Assembly (NCBI RefSeq): GCF_006345805.1
Contig: NW_021826856.1
Coordinates: 1 to 11,864 of the forward strand
Origin: Octopus sinensis
Taxonomy: Eukaryota
Length of the DNA stretch: 11,864 nucleotides
Reading direction: 5' to 3'
Shown here: positions 1,236-9,082 of the stretch, piece by piece
Position numbering within the stretch: the first letter of the stretch is position 1
How the letters are laid out: the number at the start of each line of letters is the position of its first letter
Notes under the pieces: generated by a model
The model's input: only the letters and a program-made list of their open reading frames with translations
The model's database searches: none
What the model was told of the DNA's origin: nothing
Translations under genes and position numbers: made by a program

Positions 1236-1646
1236 TACTCTTTAAATCTTTTACTTGTTTCAGTCATTTGACTGCGGCCATGCTGGAGCACCACCTTTAG
1301 TCGAGCAAATCGACCCCGGGACTTATTCTTTGTAAGCCCAGTACTTATTCTATCGGTCTCTTTTGCCGAACCGCTAAGTAACGGAGACGTAAACACACCA
1401 GCATCGGTTGTCAAGTGATGTTGGAGGGGATAAACACAGACACACAAACACATACACACACATACATATATATATATACATATATACGACAGGCTTCATT
1501 CAGTTTCCGTCTACCAAATCCACTCACAAGGCATTGGTCGGCCCGGGGCTCTAGCAGAAGACACTTGCCCAAGATGCCACGCAGTGGGACTGAACCCGGA
1601 ACCATGTGGTTGGTTAGCAAGCTACTTACCACACAGCCACTCCTGC
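1236..1646 (-). mobile_element. Near full-length tRNA-derived SINE (family A, octopus-type)
   Basis: The minus strand begins GCAGGAGTGGCTGTGTGGTAAG, with A box TGGCTGTGTGG (1639-1629) and B box GGTTCAGTCCC (1596-1586). A CTTGGGCAAGT CORE-like segment follows, then an internal (TA)/(TG) microsatellite (about 1435-1486), a 3' body and an AAAGAGT-like tail near 1236. Older copies lie at 1652, 8021 and 11213. Confidence 0.92.
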
Positions 1647-1862: not shown

Positions 1863-1928
<66 letters not shown>

Positions 1929-1932
1929 GGAG
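1863..1932. repeat. (TA)n(GA)n compound microsatellite
   Basis: Directly visible dinucleotide runs. Confidence 0.97.
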
Positions 1933-2069
1933 AGAGTGGTTGTATACCGTCAACTTAACATGACAGTCCCGTATGGGAATTACACCACCGCTGTTTAGCC
2001 CTAGGAAGAATCGGTGGTGTAATTCCCATACGGGACTGTCACGTTAAGTTGACGGTATACAACCACTCT
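1933..2069. repeat. 58-bp inverted repeat with 21-nt spacer (57/58 matched)
   Basis: 1933-1990 is the reverse complement of 2012-2069 except A1960 opposite C2042. Spacer ctgtttagccctaggaagaat (1991-2011). Confidence 0.98.
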
Positions 2070-2124
2070 ATCGCTCCACCACCGCTCATGTCTCTTTGAG
2101 ACATTTAGAAATTTAATATTTCTG

Positions 2125-3227: not shown

Positions 3228-4160
3228 TCTATAGAATGTACAGAGTAGTTGACAAAGCGAAAATCGACATACTGTTGTTTCCTTGATTCTTCAGTCTTTG
3301 GTTTCGTTTGTGCCAAATCTTAATAAAATGAGACAAAGATTCAACTGTCTCAATTAGGCGAAAAGATACGCGGAGCGAGTTAAGCGGAACAGGTACACCG
3401 GAAATCGAAACTGCGTCTCAAGCACAATCTTTTTGAGAACTGGTCACCTTTCTACATCATATACAACAACAGAAGGCAGGTGGCGAGCCATACCAGCAAG
3501 AATTTGCAACCAGATCTTCAAACATCATTCTACCACCGAGAACAACGCTGAGGCGTTCATCTAGGCAGCTGGCAAGAACGTGTCAAAACATATGAAATGC
3601 CGACTTACAAGGCGGCCACGAACGATGCAAAATTACCAAGATTTGGTAGAGATAATGGAGTATATATAAAAGAAAAGGTATTGTGAAAACTTTAATTTGG
3701 AAATGATAAAAAGAACTTTAAATTCTGAAAAAAAATGTTGAACTTTGTAAAATTTTTGAAATGTATGTTGAAAATGTGTAAAATGTTTTTATTTGGAAAA
3801 TATTGTTGACGAATAAAAAATGACGAAAAGTAACCGCTCGATTTCGGGGATCGAGTGGGCATTACACCACATTGTACAAACTTCATATTTCATTATTTTA
3901 TTTTTTCCCGATTGTATTGTCCCCTCTATGTTGCCCCTTGTGGGTAGGAATAAAACAATTCTACCACCGTAAAAATTGCCTGCATATTGGCTAATGTAGT
4001 GCTATAATCGCAATGCCTCAGGAAAAGTTGCGATGGTTATGGTTGGAACATCATTGTTCGTAGGTTTACTCAATCATAGATGTCCGAGAGCTTAACAACT
4101 ACAACAAAGTTTTAGTCGATCATATCGGCCTTAGCATTCATTCACCTAGGGTCGGAATTA

Positions 4161-4721: not shown

Positions 4722-4798
4722 TTAATATATATATATTACAGTATATATATATATATTATATATATATAGATAATATATATATATAGTATATATATATA
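4722..4798. repeat. Imperfect (TA)n microsatellite
   Basis: Directly visible. Confidence 0.93.
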
Positions 4799-5030
4799 AA
4801 GTTAATCCAAAACATGACAAACACAAAGAGTAAAACACACAAACAAAGGGAGGGACGTTGGAACAAGTATATAGTGTTATTGGACACGCTCAGGACACGG
4901 AGGGGAAAGGAAGAAAGAAGGAGGATTTAACGTTTCGAGCGGAGCTCCTTCGCCAGAAACATAGGAAAAGGAAAGATCCAAGGAAAGGAAGACAGGAAAA
5001 AAATTGCCAACGATACACACGCGGTCACAA
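4799..5030 (-). mobile_element. Penelope pLTR-like short repeat with hammerhead-like motif, copy 1
   Basis: Minus-strand order: atcgtt..caattttt, pyrimidine tract, GA-AG-GAGC-TCC-GCTC-GAAACGTT, tcctgagcg, aata, T-rich end abutting (TA)n. The same order of blocks is seen at 8888-9082. Confidence 0.7.
4925..4960 (-). ncRNA. Minimal type I hammerhead ribozyme-like motif (variant core CUGGCGA)
   Basis: GUUU-CUGGCGA-AG-GAGC(UCC)GCUC-GAAA-CGU-U-AAAU. Stem I GUUU/AAAU, 4-bp stem II, palindromic AACGUU stem III region. Differs from CUGANGA at A6. Confidence 0.62.
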
Positions 5031-5037
5031 TGTATTA

Positions 5038-5237
5038 AAGCGGCGAGCTGATATGATCGTTAACAAGCCGGGCGAAATGCTTAGCGGTATTTCGTCTGTC
5101 TTCATGTTCTGAGTACAAATTCCGCCGAGGTCGACATTGTCTTTCATCCTTTTGTGATCGATAAAATAAGTACCAGTTGAGCACTTGTGTCGGTGTAATC
5201 GACTTACACCCCCGCCCGAATTTGTTGGCCTTGTGAC
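5038..5237 (+). mobile_element. tRNA-type SINE (family B)
   Basis: GC-richer unit with head GCGGCGAGCTG..ATCGTTAAC, B-box-like GAGTACAAATTC (5111-5122) and body ..TCGATAAAATAAGTACCAGT..TAATCGACT. A second copy lies inverted at 96-238. Confidence 0.85.
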
Positions 5238-5252
5238 CCTCCGACTGAGACA

Positions 5253-5400
5253 CGTCTGGTCTTTTCTCTTTATTTTTCTATCTCCTCATTTATTCTTTCC
5301 GTAGAAGACCGTATAGTCGAAACGTTAAAGGCTTCTTTCAATTTTCCTAGCGTCGGCCTAATACTACTAATACTATATTTTTCCTGAGTATCAAACTAAG
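5253..5400 (+). mobile_element. Penelope pLTR-like short repeat with hammerhead-like motif, copy 2
   Basis: Pyrimidine tract, gtagaagaccgtatagtcgaaacgttaaag, then ttcct(g)agcgtc..ctaatac (partially duplicated). Matches 8956-9022 (gtcgaagagcgtaggctcgaaacgtaaaag...ttcctgagcgccaaactaatac). Confidence 0.7.
5294..5331 (+). ncRNA. Minimal type I hammerhead ribozyme-like motif (variant core CCGUAGA)
   Basis: UCUUU-CCGUAGA-A-GAC(CGUAUA)GUC-GAAA-CGU-U-AAAGG. 5-bp stem I (one G-U), 3-bp stem II, AACGUU palindrome. Confidence 0.5.
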
Positions 5401-5459
5401 TTATGAACTGAAACAGGATTGAATTTAACGCAGGATTGAAACATAAATGTTTCTTAATG

Positions 5460-5659
5460 AAACATTTGTCTTTGTTCCAACTTACTGCATGACAAAATCG
5501 CAGACTACAGCATACAATTTCGAAGTAAAACACAGCGTTGTCACTCAGAACACTGTCTCATGAAGATCACTGCTAGCTCTCAATGCGCATATAACCGTAT
5601 GCTGCCATCTGTTGGCACGCTACAGAACTAGTCCGGAAACTTTTTGATACCACCTCGTA
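5460..5659 (-). mobile_element. 5' fragment of a mariner-like element (TIR, leader, start of transposase)
   Basis: The minus strand reads TA-CGAGGTGGTATCAAAAAGTTTCCGGACT (5659-5630), a typical mariner TIR. Then come the subterminal GCCAACAGATGGCAGCA (5616-5600), ATG at 5490 and a frameshifted LEQR (5480-5469) resembling the mariner N-terminal EQR..IKF motif. No second TIR in the window. Confidence 0.8.
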
Positions 5660-8020
5660 ACTTACTTCATTACTTATAGCAATATGTTTAGTTCCAGTTC
5701 AGCAATAGGTTACAGACTCACGAATCTTCGCCTCGTGGCGTGATGTTTTGCCATTTAAGCCATCTGCTCACTGAAATTCAATATTCTACTTCTCAAGTTC
5801 AATAGTTCGTATCTTAGGTAAAATGCCAGCTACAAATCCGAATGAATTCATTAAAATTACTGAAGGAGAGCTAAATTTGTATCAACGTCAGACGTCGTCA
5901 ACGACTCCTGGTCAAGTTATCTCCGATTCATTTTATGAAACTTGAACTTTGTGAAATTGCTTGATTTTAAATTAAACTACCCGTATCCATTCAGCAAGTG
6001 TCCAGCTTTCTTTAGCGATTCTCTTTCAATGCTATTCACAATTGTAACTAACTGTTGAAGACATCCATTTATTATCTGTTTATTTCAGCAATGCCGAACT
6101 TATCTGTAACAACGAAAATACAATCCGATTTAGAACAGGAAGTTTGCTAATTCACAGCTTCCGTCTTTAAACCGCCATCTTTAAGAATCATACACTGAAG
6201 AAAAATATGACAAAAGAAAGAGGGAAAGAGAGGGGGAGATAGATAGAAAGAAAGAAAGATAGAACGAGAAATATACTTTAACCTCTAGGATAACAGGTAA
6301 TTAATGATATATCACTGGTGTAAAGTATGAAAGAGCAGTGCGGAACTAATTAGATCTGTATAAATATTGACTTTTTCCCTTGATATCAGTTTAGCAAACA
6401 TGGCGACAACGTTTCTCTAAGATTGCCTGATAAGTGTTAGTTGAAAGAAAGCACATGGACGCTATATGTCACAACAAGGGAATTTGTAAAGAGATACAGA
6501 CATAAAACCCATGGAAGAAAATAATTATTCTAAAGGAATAGCGACTTTAAAAGGCTTATAAAAATACATCAAGTAAAGGAAGGGTAACAACGCAATCAAT
6601 ATTTCATGATGAATTCTGCAGTGTTGGCTTTTCTAACACCATCGGACGACGTTGCTCATTGCAGATAACTAACAGAGGATGTAGCAACAGGTGTCGATCG
6701 TTGTTATTGTTGTTGCTGTTGTTCTTGTTATTACCGCTGTTGCAGTTGAAGGTATCACGGAAAGATTGAAACCTTTGAATATCTCGCTAATTTTAGCATC
6801 TCTTGGGAGGAAATATTCCCAAGACGTTTTCTATAACCTATTCCACTCTTTCCAGATCTATAGCGGGAGTTCAACTCAGTACTGAAAACTAACAAAGCAG
6901 CATTAATTATAGATTGAGATCTCGGTTTACAATAGAGAACCGTACCAAATCCATGGATCCTATTTTCAGATATATTGCCTGAGGCATAAAATAAGAAATT
7001 ACTCAGGAATAACATACGAGTGTTTTATTTACTTCTGAGAAATGAAAGCCCTGTTAATACGGGAATGTATTGTAGCAGTAGTAATTATATTTTCCATGTT
7101 TATTGAACTAATATAATATCAACTTTATAGGGTAGGGGAAAATTTATTGGTTCGAGTTCTGGGCGATATTTATATACATTCATAAGAACTATGTTCAAAT
7201 ACCCATGAAGTCAATTTTACCTTTCAATTTCTTGTCGATGAATTTAATGCGAATCATGTCTTGCCGGTAGGTTGCTTTAATCAATAACATTTTTTAGCCA
7301 AAATGTGGATACTTGTACCAACGTTAGAAATCAATGTATATTTTTAGCGTCATCATTCTGTGAACTCGATGCCTTTCAACACTAGAAATTCTATTTCAAA
7401 GATTTGAGCTTAAAATTTAATCCTCGCAGACAAGTTTGTTTTTGTATTTACATATACGAAATTCACCGTCTATTGCATTGTTTATCTCATTGGGATACTC
7501 CTGAAGACCAAACCTCCGTGTCTTATTTCAAGAAAAGAATATATACTGCAATAGCTTTCTAAGGAAAGCTTTTTCAATTGACTTTCAATTCACATGAAGA
7601 ACTGAATTCTTCCTATTGAAGGGTCTTCAACAAAAAATACAATCCTGCATAAGACAAGAATTTGGCTGATAGAAATCACTCAACTTCAACCTGCAACCTT
7701 AAATGCTTTAACCGTTATCCGTCATCACTAAAACGCTTAACTATCATTTTAATTTTAAAAGTCCTGTGTCTGAGATGAACATGTAGAATGAAACTAACTT
7801 TTTTTAGAAGAAGGACCGGCATCTATAGCTCCTTTTTAAAGCCTCTGTGTCTGGTAGAAAGAAGGAAGTTACCCTTAGAGCGGTTACCTAATCTGAATAA
7901 TTATAACAACTTAGAGGACTCTGCTAAAAGTGCTCAACAATAAGATGATAGTGTTAAATTGAGCAAAGGATTAAGTTAACTACCTAGGAACAGGAACCGT
8001 CCTTCGAATGGTCTTCAATG

Positions 8021-8164
8021 TCATTTCCGTCTACCAAATTGTATTTTTCAAGATTTTAATTAATTCACAGCTATGGTAGAAAATACTTGCACAAGGAGTC
8101 GTGCATATGGATTGAGCATGAATCTACCTAATTATGAAACGAGCGTCTCAACAACTCAGTCATG
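8021..8164 (-). mobile_element. Old SINE family A copy, 5' head/core
   Basis: The exact 16-mer tttccgtctaccaaat occurs at 8024-8039 and 1504-1519. Colinear similarity continues (gcta..gtagaa.a.acttgc.caag, tgggattga) to the head region. Confidence 0.8.
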
Positions 8165-8519
8165 TGTCAAACAATATACTTACGTTTGTACTTTCATTAC
8201 CTAAGATAACTGCACATTTTTAGGAATATATTAAGAGTTAAGAAATGAGAATAATGAATAAAGAATAAACCTGATAACATTTAATTTTATCTGTCGTGTT
8301 ATGCTTGTATACAGAATAGTATGTAGTTTTACATCTACTGTACTTAAATGTTTGTATATTTACGTCATGTAAAGTGTGACAATTTTTATTTTACAAGTCT
8401 TGTAAACATGTACAAAACCGTTTACTGTTAGCGGTCTTTTACATCTCTACAACAACTGATCACTGATGTTAAGGACCATTCATAAAACAAATTTCGCTCC
8501 TTCCTGCGGTGAAAACATT

Positions 8520-8626
8520 TAAGTTGACAATGACGAAATCGAGACGATGGCAACATAATCGAGACTAGCGCTAACGAATTTGAGGTTGACATTTACGAGA
8601 TGGAGGTTGATAATGACGAATTTGAA
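8520..8626 (+). repeat. Degenerate 21-bp tandem repeat, five units
   Basis: Units: taagttgacaatgacgaaatc (8520), gagacgatggcaacataatc (8541, 20 nt), gagactagcgctaacgaattt (8561), gaggttgacatttacgagatg (8582), gaggttgataatgacgaattt (8603). Confidence 0.7.
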
Positions 8627-8637
8627 GAGGAAACCCA

Positions 8638-8854
8638 GTATGTATGTATGTATGTATGTATGTATGTATGTATGTATGTATGTATGTAGTATGTATGTAT
8701 GTATGTATGTATGTATGCATGCATGCATGTATGTATGTAAGTATGTATATATTATGTATGTATGTATGTGTGTGTGTGTACGTATGTATGTGTGCATGTA
8801 CGTATGTATGTATGTATGTATGTATGTATGTATGTATGTATGTATGTATGTATG

Positions 8855-8886
<32 letters not shown>
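8638..8886. repeat. (TATG)n then (TA)n microsatellite
   Basis: Directly visible. It explains the MYVC/HTYI ORFs. Confidence 0.98.
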
Positions 8887-8887
8887 A

Positions 8888-9082
8888 CGCCATGTTGGAT
8901 CGTTAGCCCCTACACGCAATTTTTGTCTCTCCTTGTTTCTTTTCTGTATCTTTTTGTCGAAGAGCGTAGGCTCGAAACGTAAAAGACTTGTTTTATTTCT
9001 ATTCCTGAGCGCCAAACTAATACATTGTTTTTTTGTACTCCACCTGCCTTCGTCTTTTGTTTATTTTCGTAAACCTTCCCGT
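8888..9082 (+). mobile_element. Penelope pLTR-like short repeat with hammerhead-like motif, copy 3, embedded in a TA/TATG microsatellite
   Basis: A 195-bp non-simple unit with (TA)n on both sides. Block order and motif are shared with 4799-5030 (minus) and 5253-5400. Confidence 0.75.
8949..8986 (+). ncRNA. Minimal type I hammerhead ribozyme-like motif (variant core UUGUCGA)
   Basis: UCUUU-UUGUCGA-A-GAGC(GUAG)GCUC-GAAA-CGU-A-AAAGA. Perfect 5-bp stem I (8949-8953 with 8982-8986), 4-bp stem II, ACGU palindrome, predicted GUA cleavage triplet ending at 8981. Confidence 0.58.

What the first reader, a model, noticed from the sequence alone, without database searches (positions are those of the whole stretch)
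4799..9082. Dispersed non-coding repeat family carrying minimal hammerhead-ribozyme folds with non-canonical cores (3 copies)
Seen: loci 4925-4960 (minus), 5294-5331 and 8949-8986 all read stem I - 7-nt core - A - stem II - GAAA - CGU - H - stem I', inside related 150-230 bp units. Stem II co-varies (GAGC/GCUC with two different loops; GAC/GUC) and stem I stays paired in all three. Established: Penelope-like retroelement pLTRs and retrozymes carry minimal type I hammerheads with a palindromic stem III that are thought to act as dimers. Unusual: none has the canonical CUGANGA core (CUGGCGA, CCGUAGA, UUGUCGA). The two + strand copies share U at the normally invariant A6 although they diverge elsewhere. 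Inference: an A6U subfamily amplified with this change, so it is either a variant ribozyme or a non-cleaving fold kept as a recognition signal for a Penelope RT.
Basis: partly seen in the sequence, partly recalled or inferred. Interest (0 to 1): 0.75.

Follow-up and report, generated by a model that had tools for sequence, protein, structure and literature searches.

The report
Penelope hammerhead with fixed A6U core
The three repeats are tail pieces of two sister Penelope-type jumping genes; one keeps A at a normally fixed core position of its hammerhead RNA motif, while the other carries U there in about 13,000 copies and kept spreading, so it is likely a slowed self-cutter, though cutting is untested.

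Summary
The three motifs are real. They are pLTR fragments of two sister Penelope-like (likely Neptune) retrotransposon lineages, not one family.

Locus 4925 belongs to a lineage with A6 (100 of 100 listed copies); its G6 is private decay. Loci 5299 and 8954 belong to a lineage with A6U fixed: 13,092 exact motif matches, purine at position 6 in only 164. Full-length RT/GIY-YIG copies carry U6 in both pLTRs. Across six subfamily consensuses only positions 4, 7 and 17 vary, the positions a hammerhead tolerates. All 21 motifs found beside related RTs in metagenomes have A6, so U6 is derived.

Best reading (0.5): a slowed hammerhead still under selection. Main rival (0.3): a non-cleaving fold read by the element's protein. 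In both lineages most short copies span the motif and start 65-80 nt upstream; there is no peak at the cut site. No raw RNA reads were available.

Hammerheads in Penelope pLTRs are known. I found no natural A6U hammerhead in print, but could not read Lünse 2017. This scan noted A6U before, elsewhere in this genome and in other genomes (28 notes, unverified).

The parts
4799..5029 (-). Short pLTR fragment of the A6 lineage ('family A'), 3' end against a (TA)n tract
   Evidence: Aligns end to end with family copies. The same motif lies downstream of RT/GIY-YIG frames 59-79% identical to the U6 lineage in 12 of 20 fetched loci.
4925..4960 (-). Minimal hammerhead motif of the A6 lineage; this copy has A6G and an extra G before stem II; H17 at 4929
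   Evidence: Sequence; relatives have CUGACGA or CCGACGA.
5233..5382 (+). Old, decayed pLTR fragment of the U6 lineage, subfamily S5 (core CCGUAGA)
   Evidence: scored copies diverge 22.6% from their consensus.
5295..5330 (+). Minimal hammerhead motif with U4C and A6U (both shared by the subfamily) and a privately mutated stem II; H17 at 5326
   Evidence: 10 of 14 scored nearest copies have CCGUAGA and all 14 have U6.
8886..9082 (+). Young pLTR fragment of the U6 lineage, subfamily S2 (core CUGUCGA), between TA/TATG tracts
   Evidence: 39 other scored places at 94-97% identity. Longer copies L009 and L014 run upstream into a GIY-YIG frame.
8949..8986 (+). Minimal hammerhead motif with lineage-wide A6U (U at 8957) and private C3U; H17 at 8981
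4725..4798 (.). (TA)n-rich target tract at the 3' end of the family A fragment
   Evidence: copies end at (TA)n throughout.
8638..8885 (.). (TATG)n/(TA)n tract at the 5' junction of the S2 fragment

Best explanation
The three repeats are pLTR fragments of two sister Penelope-like retrotransposon lineages, and in one lineage the minimal hammerhead has A6U fixed while the rest of the core is frozen, so it is likely a slowed hammerhead that still cuts occasionally. Shown: element identity, fixation of U6, its derived state, and conservation of the motif. Inferred: two motifs pair through their ACGU palindromes and cut after H17 at a low rate, probably with help from the element's protein, as reported for the anole Poseidon element. 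Inferred: most insertions come from uncut RNA. Reverse transcription would start about 100 nt downstream of the motif at a (TA)n target and run off a preferred 5' end 65-80 nt upstream of the core (a likely transcription start), which gives the roughly 200-bp units. Rare cutting would matter for another step, such as making circles that yield more-than-unit copies.
For: Fixation: 13,092 exact matches with positions 6 and 7 left free; 99 of the first 100 have U6. Purine at 6 in 164 of 13,092. A6 copies are scattered inside U6 subfamilies, and A:G at position 6 (79:21 of 100 listed) resembles the transversion ratio at a stem II control site (33:12). Copies picked by the downstream flank: U6 in 25 of 27, A6 in 0. 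Coding copies: 15 of 16 motifs in 12 loci chosen for long open frames have U6, 1 has C6; 5 loci have both pLTRs. Polarity: the sister lineage (support 100, quick tree) has A6, and so do 21 of 21 motifs in 18 of 80 metagenome loci. Selection with a hammerhead signature: 33 of 36 motif columns invariant across six subfamily consensuses against 75 of 146 gap-free flank columns (Fisher p 3e-6). The three variable columns are 4 (U/C), 7 (all four bases) and 17 (U/A). PMC4075628 names these as the tolerated positions and puts A6 in the 10-100-fold class, against over 100-fold for C3, G5, G8, G12, A14, A15.1, all invariant here. Contigs of 8 public runs pile up on the motif and lose the reference on either side. 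Natural A6C cleaves slowly (PMC3088659) and well in Mn2+ (PMC7151607). A PLE hammerhead is protein-assisted and dispensable for insertion in vitro (PMC11167929). 5' ends: 32 of 79 U6 copies and 20 of 30 A6 copies start within 12 nt of one upstream site.
Against: No cleavage data exist for this motif. In a full mutant scan all CUGA single mutants had low activity and only the C3-G8 swap rescued (PMC9901934). A6C dropped to 3.55e-6 per min at 0.3 mM Mg2+ in one ribozyme, and canonical minimal PLE hammerheads are already weak. There is no peak of 5' ends at the cut site: 5 of 44 distinct loci in the U6 lineage, similar to neighbouring positions, and 3 of 27 in the A6 lineage (hand counts). Stem II and loop 2 are invariant in sequence within the U6 lineage, with no compensatory change, which also fits sequence-specific protein binding. 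Three of the six subfamilies were found mainly through motif patterns, which inflates motif conservation. That U6 never reverted is not evidence that U is favoured: about half of flank columns are invariant too.
Confidence: 0.5

Rival explanations
1. The U6 motif no longer cuts; the fold and most core letters are kept because the element's RT-endonuclease protein (or a host factor) binds this RNA to load the template or place the start of reverse transcription.
For: Stem II and loop 2 are frozen in sequence across subfamilies whose flanks are 60-93% identical. Genomic copies come mostly from uncut RNA. Catalytic mutants did not impair insertion in vitro (PMC11167929). Naiads amplify without canonical hammerheads (PMC8557442). 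CUGA mutants are nearly dead in a mutant scan.
Against: The only variable positions (4, 7, 17) are those that catalysis tolerates, and H17 is never G in the six consensuses. The canonical sister lineage also shows no cut-site peak, so that test does not separate the lineages. In the anole element the minimal template lay downstream and 5' truncations stayed active.
Confidence: 0.3
2. The motif is conserved as DNA, for example as part of an internal promoter 65-80 nt downstream of the transcription start, and the hammerhead shape is inherited but unused.
For: A preferred 5' boundary lies just upstream in both lineages. PLE promoters lie in the pLTR (PMC6765202). No covariation within the U6 lineage.
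Against: Across relatives both stems covary (33 cells with double changes, 0 of 500 shuffles as high). The pattern of tolerated change matches hammerhead chemistry; I know no promoter motif that predicts it.
Confidence: 0.1
3. The ribozyme was inactivated once by A6U and has since been a neutral passenger of a successful lineage.
For: Cleavage is dispensable in vitro. Pattern-based sampling inflates apparent conservation.
Against: Subfamilies not picked by a motif pattern show the same contrast: S5 against S1, 34 of 36 motif columns identical with flanks at 60%. Contig pile-ups peak on the motif in 8 runs.
Confidence: 0.07

Closest known systems
Minimal hammerheads (min-HHR) of metazoan PLE pLTRs, Cervera and De la Pena 2014 (PMC4209133; read main text parts 1-2 of 4, supplement parts 1-2 of 3)
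   Same: Type I layout, extra base after A9, G10.1-C11.1, CG palindrome in place of stem III, short stem I, place in both pLTRs, many solo copies. Motifs of outgroup loci L270 and L324 match their Acropora digitifera Neptune example in stems and layout.
   Different: All 56 representatives in their Fig. S3 have A6; the only core variant described in the parts read is U3-A8. Their consensus is CUGANGA, so such a search would miss U6 families.
Natural A6C hammerhead of phage Bcep176 (Perreault 2011, PMC3088659, passages and part 3 of 8; Naghdi 2020, PMC7151607, parts 1-2 of 4)
   Same: A natural pyrimidine at position 6; slow in Mg2+, active in Mn2+.
   Different: A single phage ribozyme, C rather than U. 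Here U6 is fixed in a retrotransposon lineage of over 13,000 copies in a minimal, dimer-type motif.
Poseidon element PAc of Anolis carolinensis (Frangieh 2024, PMC11167929, parts 1-2 of 4)
   Same: EN+ PLE with pLTR hammerhead, internal start of reverse transcription downstream of the motif, AT-rich targets, uncut RNA as main template.
   Different: Penelope/Poseidon clade, with a hammerhead that cleaves with protein help; no change at position 6 is mentioned in the parts read.
Neptune clade of EN+ PLEs (Craig 2021, PMC8557442, passages)
   Same: RT followed by a CX2-5CxxC linker and C-terminal GIY-YIG, partial tandem pLTRs, inverted 5' pieces, microsatellite targets.
   Different: The paper states that canonical hammerheads are universal in Hydra and other canonical PLEs; this lineage's core is not canonical.
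Non-LTR retrozymes (bioRxiv 10.64898/2026.07.22.740005, part 1 of 5 and passages)
   Same: Short non-coding repeats with type I hammerheads derived from PLE pLTRs.
   Different: Retrozymes are defined by tandem units. These copies are dispersed fragments that run on into coding elements.

Membership tests
EN+ Penelope-like element | RT followed by C-terminal GIY-YIG in one frame | tested here: met
   Open frames of 574-1009 codons in 12 of 12 loci, 11 of them running through the YIG motif; Pfam RVT_1 above cut-off (Pfam did not report GIY-YIG). From the likely start codon the frame breaks after 38-271 codons in 5 of 5 two-pLTR copies, so no copy examined is fully intact.
EN+ Penelope-like element | Direct pLTRs in partial tandem around the ORF | tested here: met
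   5 of 12 loci have the motif twice, 4.3-4.5 kb apart, with near-identical repeats.
EN+ Penelope-like element | Fixed 3' end, variable 5' truncation, microsatellite targets | tested here: met
Neptune clade | CX2-5CxxC linker between RT and endonuclease | tested here: met
   C-X4-C-X2-C at residue 774 of the L171 frame, before YIG at 825.
Neptune clade | RT phylogeny groups with named Neptune references | tested here: inconclusive
   No named PLE references were in the tree (quick method). Indirect: near outgroups L270 and L324 carry a motif like the published Acropora Neptune hammerhead. The Nematis clade shares the linker and was not excluded by a tree.
Minimal PLE hammerhead (min-HHR) | Stems I and II around the core, with covariation | tested here: met
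   93% of cells paired and 6 of 7 pairs with double changes over 13 motifs (outgroup rows were picked with a pairing filter). No covariation inside the U6 lineage.
Minimal PLE hammerhead (min-HHR) | Extra base after A9, G10.1-C11.1, palindromic 15.2-16.2 | tested here: met
   Invariant in six subfamily consensuses and in family A.
Minimal PLE hammerhead (min-HHR) | Core CUGANGA: family of locus 4925 | tested here: met
   A6 in 100 of 100 listed; U4 in 33 and C4 in 67. The window copy itself is decayed.
Minimal PLE hammerhead (min-HHR) | Core CUGANGA: lineage of loci 5299 and 8954 | tested here: not met
   U6 in 99 of 100 listed; purine in 164 of 13,092.
Minimal PLE hammerhead (min-HHR) | Self-cleavage after H17 as a dimer | not testable with these tools
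   Needs a bench assay. The genomic 5'-end footprint was inconclusive.
Rfam hammerhead families | Match to a curated covariance model | tested here: inconclusive
   No hammerhead hit at E up to 10 in the window, but none either for a canonical family A copy, so the models miss this minimal form.
Non-LTR retrozyme | Tandem arrays of short hammerhead units without coding sequence | tested here: not met
   Copies are dispersed and continue into coding elements.

The most novel reading that the evidence does not exclude
A6U is a tuned, conditional hammerhead chemistry: an off-by-default ribozyme switched on by the element's own protein or by a metal ion, which lets the element use uncut RNA for most insertions and cut rarely to make circles. 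If the shark families in earlier scan notes are real and lie outside this clade, it arose more than once in Penelope-like elements and marks a class of natural hammerheads that CUGANGA-based searches have missed.
Probability: 0.2. Interest if true: 0.78.

Novelty: new variant of a known kind. Interest (0 to 1): 0.53.

Why it matters
What the hammerhead does for Penelope-like elements is open: it is widespread, weak in vitro and was dispensable for insertion in the one reconstituted system I read. This genome holds a natural matched pair, an A6 lineage and its U6 sister, both amplified to thousands of copies on the same targets. Measuring cleavage of the two decides between two useful outcomes. 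Either position 6 tolerates U in a working natural ribozyme, which widens the core consensus and means descriptor searches undercount hammerheads. Or a dead ribozyme is held under strong selection, which points to a protein-recognition role for the fold.

Tried and rejected
Rfam: no hammerhead hit, uninformative because a canonical copy is missed too.

RNA evidence: no RNA holder listed and no raw reads. Contigs of four other organism labels list variants at positions 7 and 17 but none at 6 at 5% or more, with 5 rows not shown. The short lay did not list even the position 7 variants, so its variant table is uninformative.

Covarying stem II subfamilies within U6: a pattern excluding the usual second base gave 450 matches; the first 100 were nearly all point mutants of the same stem. 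Rejected.

'U6 was selected to lock the monomer by pairing with A15.1': predicted in short U6 folds (probability 0.42-0.98), but A6 copies fold into equally closed hairpins, and the pairing vanishes with 40 nt of context in 4 of 5 U6 copies. Not supported.

A hidden canonical subfamily within the U6 lineage: the 14 A6 copies in the tree fall among U6 copies and mostly carry the host subfamily's position 7. Rejected.

Cut-site footprint: no peak in either lineage. Identity of the two pLTRs within a copy fits both a circular template and template jumps.

One search measured the wrong columns and was redone. One search was confounded by microsatellites and redone. The query was translated out of frame; its hits were checked with the right protein. 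The careful tree did not finish; the quick tree is used.

Papers not held: Lünse 2017 and Nelson and Uhlenbeck 2008. The A6U hit in PMC11662667 concerns twister ribozymes.
Full report
Observation. The three motifs are present as described, with cores starting at 4956 (minus), 5299 and 8954. A relaxed scan finds these 3 in the window and none in 300 simulated windows. The window is one contig of a 2.72-Gb assembly.

Two lineages, not one family. The nearest copies of locus 8886-9082 are 94-97% identical. Of 29, 26 could be scored: 24 CUGUCGA, 1 CCGUCGA, 1 CUGUUGA. So U6 is shared and the window's U3 is private. Near locus 5233-5382, 14 of 29 could be scored; all have U6, 10 read CCGUAGA, and none has the window's GAC/GUC stem. 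Near locus 4799-5029, 21 of 29 could be scored and all have A6. That family has 9,600 exact motif matches, with A6 in 100 of 100 listed and U4C in 67.

U6 is fixed. With positions 6 and 7 free, the other lineage gives 13,092 exact matches; the first 100 show 99 U6 and 1 C6, with all four bases at position 7. Only 164 have a purine at 6; the first 100 split 79 A to 21 G (hand count), close to the 33:12 transversion ratio at a stem II site (hand count). In a tree of 132 copies the A6 copies sit inside U6 subfamilies. Copies found by the downstream flank have U6 in 25 of 27 and A6 in none; 3 more lacked a scorable motif, and at least one of the 27 was an earlier search target. In 800 kb taken at fixed intervals, 5 of 6 flank hits carried the motif, all with U after G5, one with a small deletion. 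Among C4 copies, 96 of 100 listed have U6.

The parent element. Longer copies run into a GIY-YIG frame. A protein search scored 150 places, nearly all over 90% identical. Twelve loci chosen for long open frames show RT plus endonuclease; five have the motif in both pLTRs, and 15 of 16 motifs have U6. The linker C-X4-C-X2-C precedes YIG, as described for Neptune and Nematis (PMC8557442, passages). None of the five two-pLTR copies is open from the likely start codon. Mean divergence from consensus is 0.8% for S2 and 1.6% for S1; both sets were top hits, so these figures are biased low. Family A motifs lie downstream of RT frames 59-79% identical to the U6 protein in 12 of 20 loci.

Polarity. A quick maximum-likelihood tree of 39 RT segments joins the two lineages (SH-aLRT 100) inside relatives. 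Of 80 metagenome loci with related RTs, 18 gave 21 minimal motifs with positions 4, 6 and 7 free; all have A6. All 56 representatives in Cervera and De la Pena's Fig. S3 have A6. U6 therefore arose on this lineage's branch. Across 13 motifs both stems covary, which supports the hammerhead origin; the outgroup rows were picked with a pairing filter.

Selection after the change. Six U6 subfamily consensuses (7-26 copies each) share 33 of 36 motif columns, against 75 of 146 gap-free flank columns (p 3e-6). The variable columns are 4, 7 and 17. Olsthoorn (PMC4075628, part 1 of 2) lists these as tolerated and gives 10-100-fold loss for A6 changes, citing earlier mutagenesis that I did not read. Caveat: S3, S4 and S6 came mainly from motif patterns. 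S1 (protein search), S2 and S5 (DNA searches) show the same contrast, and contigs from 8 runs pile up on the motif. The persistence of U6 itself does not show that U is favoured.

How the short units likely arise. Among copies picked by the motif, 32 of 79 U6 copies and 20 of 30 A6 copies begin within 12 nt of one site about 65-80 nt upstream of the core (one family A locus was dropped from the U6 set). Copies that begin at the cut site are few and form no peak: 5 of 44 and 3 of 27 distinct loci among the first 100 rows listed, at a spot with TA microhomology to the target. So most templates were uncut in both lineages. This agrees with the anole element, where reverse transcription starts internally, uncut RNA is the main substrate, and the hammerhead cuts only with protein present (PMC11167929). 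I infer run-off copying from a transcription start to the internal start site; neither end is mapped here.

Does it cut? For: the tolerance pattern above; natural A6C is slow but active; protein help is documented. Against: CUGA mutants were all low in a pairwise scan (PMC9901934, passages); A6C fell about 100,000-fold in low Mg2+ in one ribozyme; stem II and loop 2 are frozen in sequence. I put slowed ribozyme at 0.5, recognition fold 0.3, DNA-level element 0.1, neutral relic 0.07.

Novelty. PLE hammerheads are known. Nine literature searches gave no natural A6U hammerhead; the one A6U passage I checked concerns twister, and the other hit was seen as a listing only. Lünse 2017, the largest survey of these variants, was not held, and its alignments could contain U6 members. 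Also seen: PMC6765202, PMC13481778, PMC13282606, PMC11014351 (passages) and PMC12192606 (no matching passage). Earlier scan notes report A6U in this genome and in others, including sharks. I confirmed the claim for this genome only. A shark protein lies outside the two-lineage clade in my tree, but I have no motif for it, so independent origin is untested.

Verdict. A new variant of a known kind; interest 0.53.

Noticed in passing
window 1926-2076: Inverted repeat with 65-nt arms, 95% complementary, 21-nt spacer; only sub-threshold miRNA-like Rfam hits. May be a fold-back insertion or a MITE.
   Followed up: no
window 1242-1430, 1650-1830, 4111-4143, 5040-5230: Related dispersed repeats of another kind (families D14, D16, D20); a similar-looking piece separates the two divergent pLTR fragments at 5040-5230.
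   Followed up: no
family A, genome-wide: U4C in 67 of 100 listed copies: a second core change that reached high frequency in the sister lineage, and separately in subfamily S5.
   Followed up: partly
both lineages, 65-80 nt upstream of the core: Strong shared hotspot of 5' ends, a candidate transcription start that would explain the roughly 200-bp units.
   Followed up: partly
L014 (G000:C10337): An inverted S3 pLTR piece abuts the 5' end of a truncated S2 copy; the two belong to different subfamilies.
   Followed up: no
L041 (G000:C7:84757745-84760954): An RT thumb segment is joined directly to the short family A unit, an internal deletion or template jump landing at the 5' hotspot.
   Followed up: partly
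L088:2781, L047, L388: Further minimal hammerhead-like motifs with other stem II sequences and A6 occur in this genome.
   Followed up: no
L049, L069, L090, L109: Fragments of other GIY-YIG endonucleases unlike the two lineages studied.
   Followed up: no
L175:156-1901, L176:932-2605: Long open frames of other RTs (LINE-like) next to the elements; in L176 the element's 3' end is joined through a (TA)n tract to such a frame.
   Followed up: no
L320 (metagenome): A two-pLTR element with the U3-A8 covariant core in both repeats.
   Followed up: no
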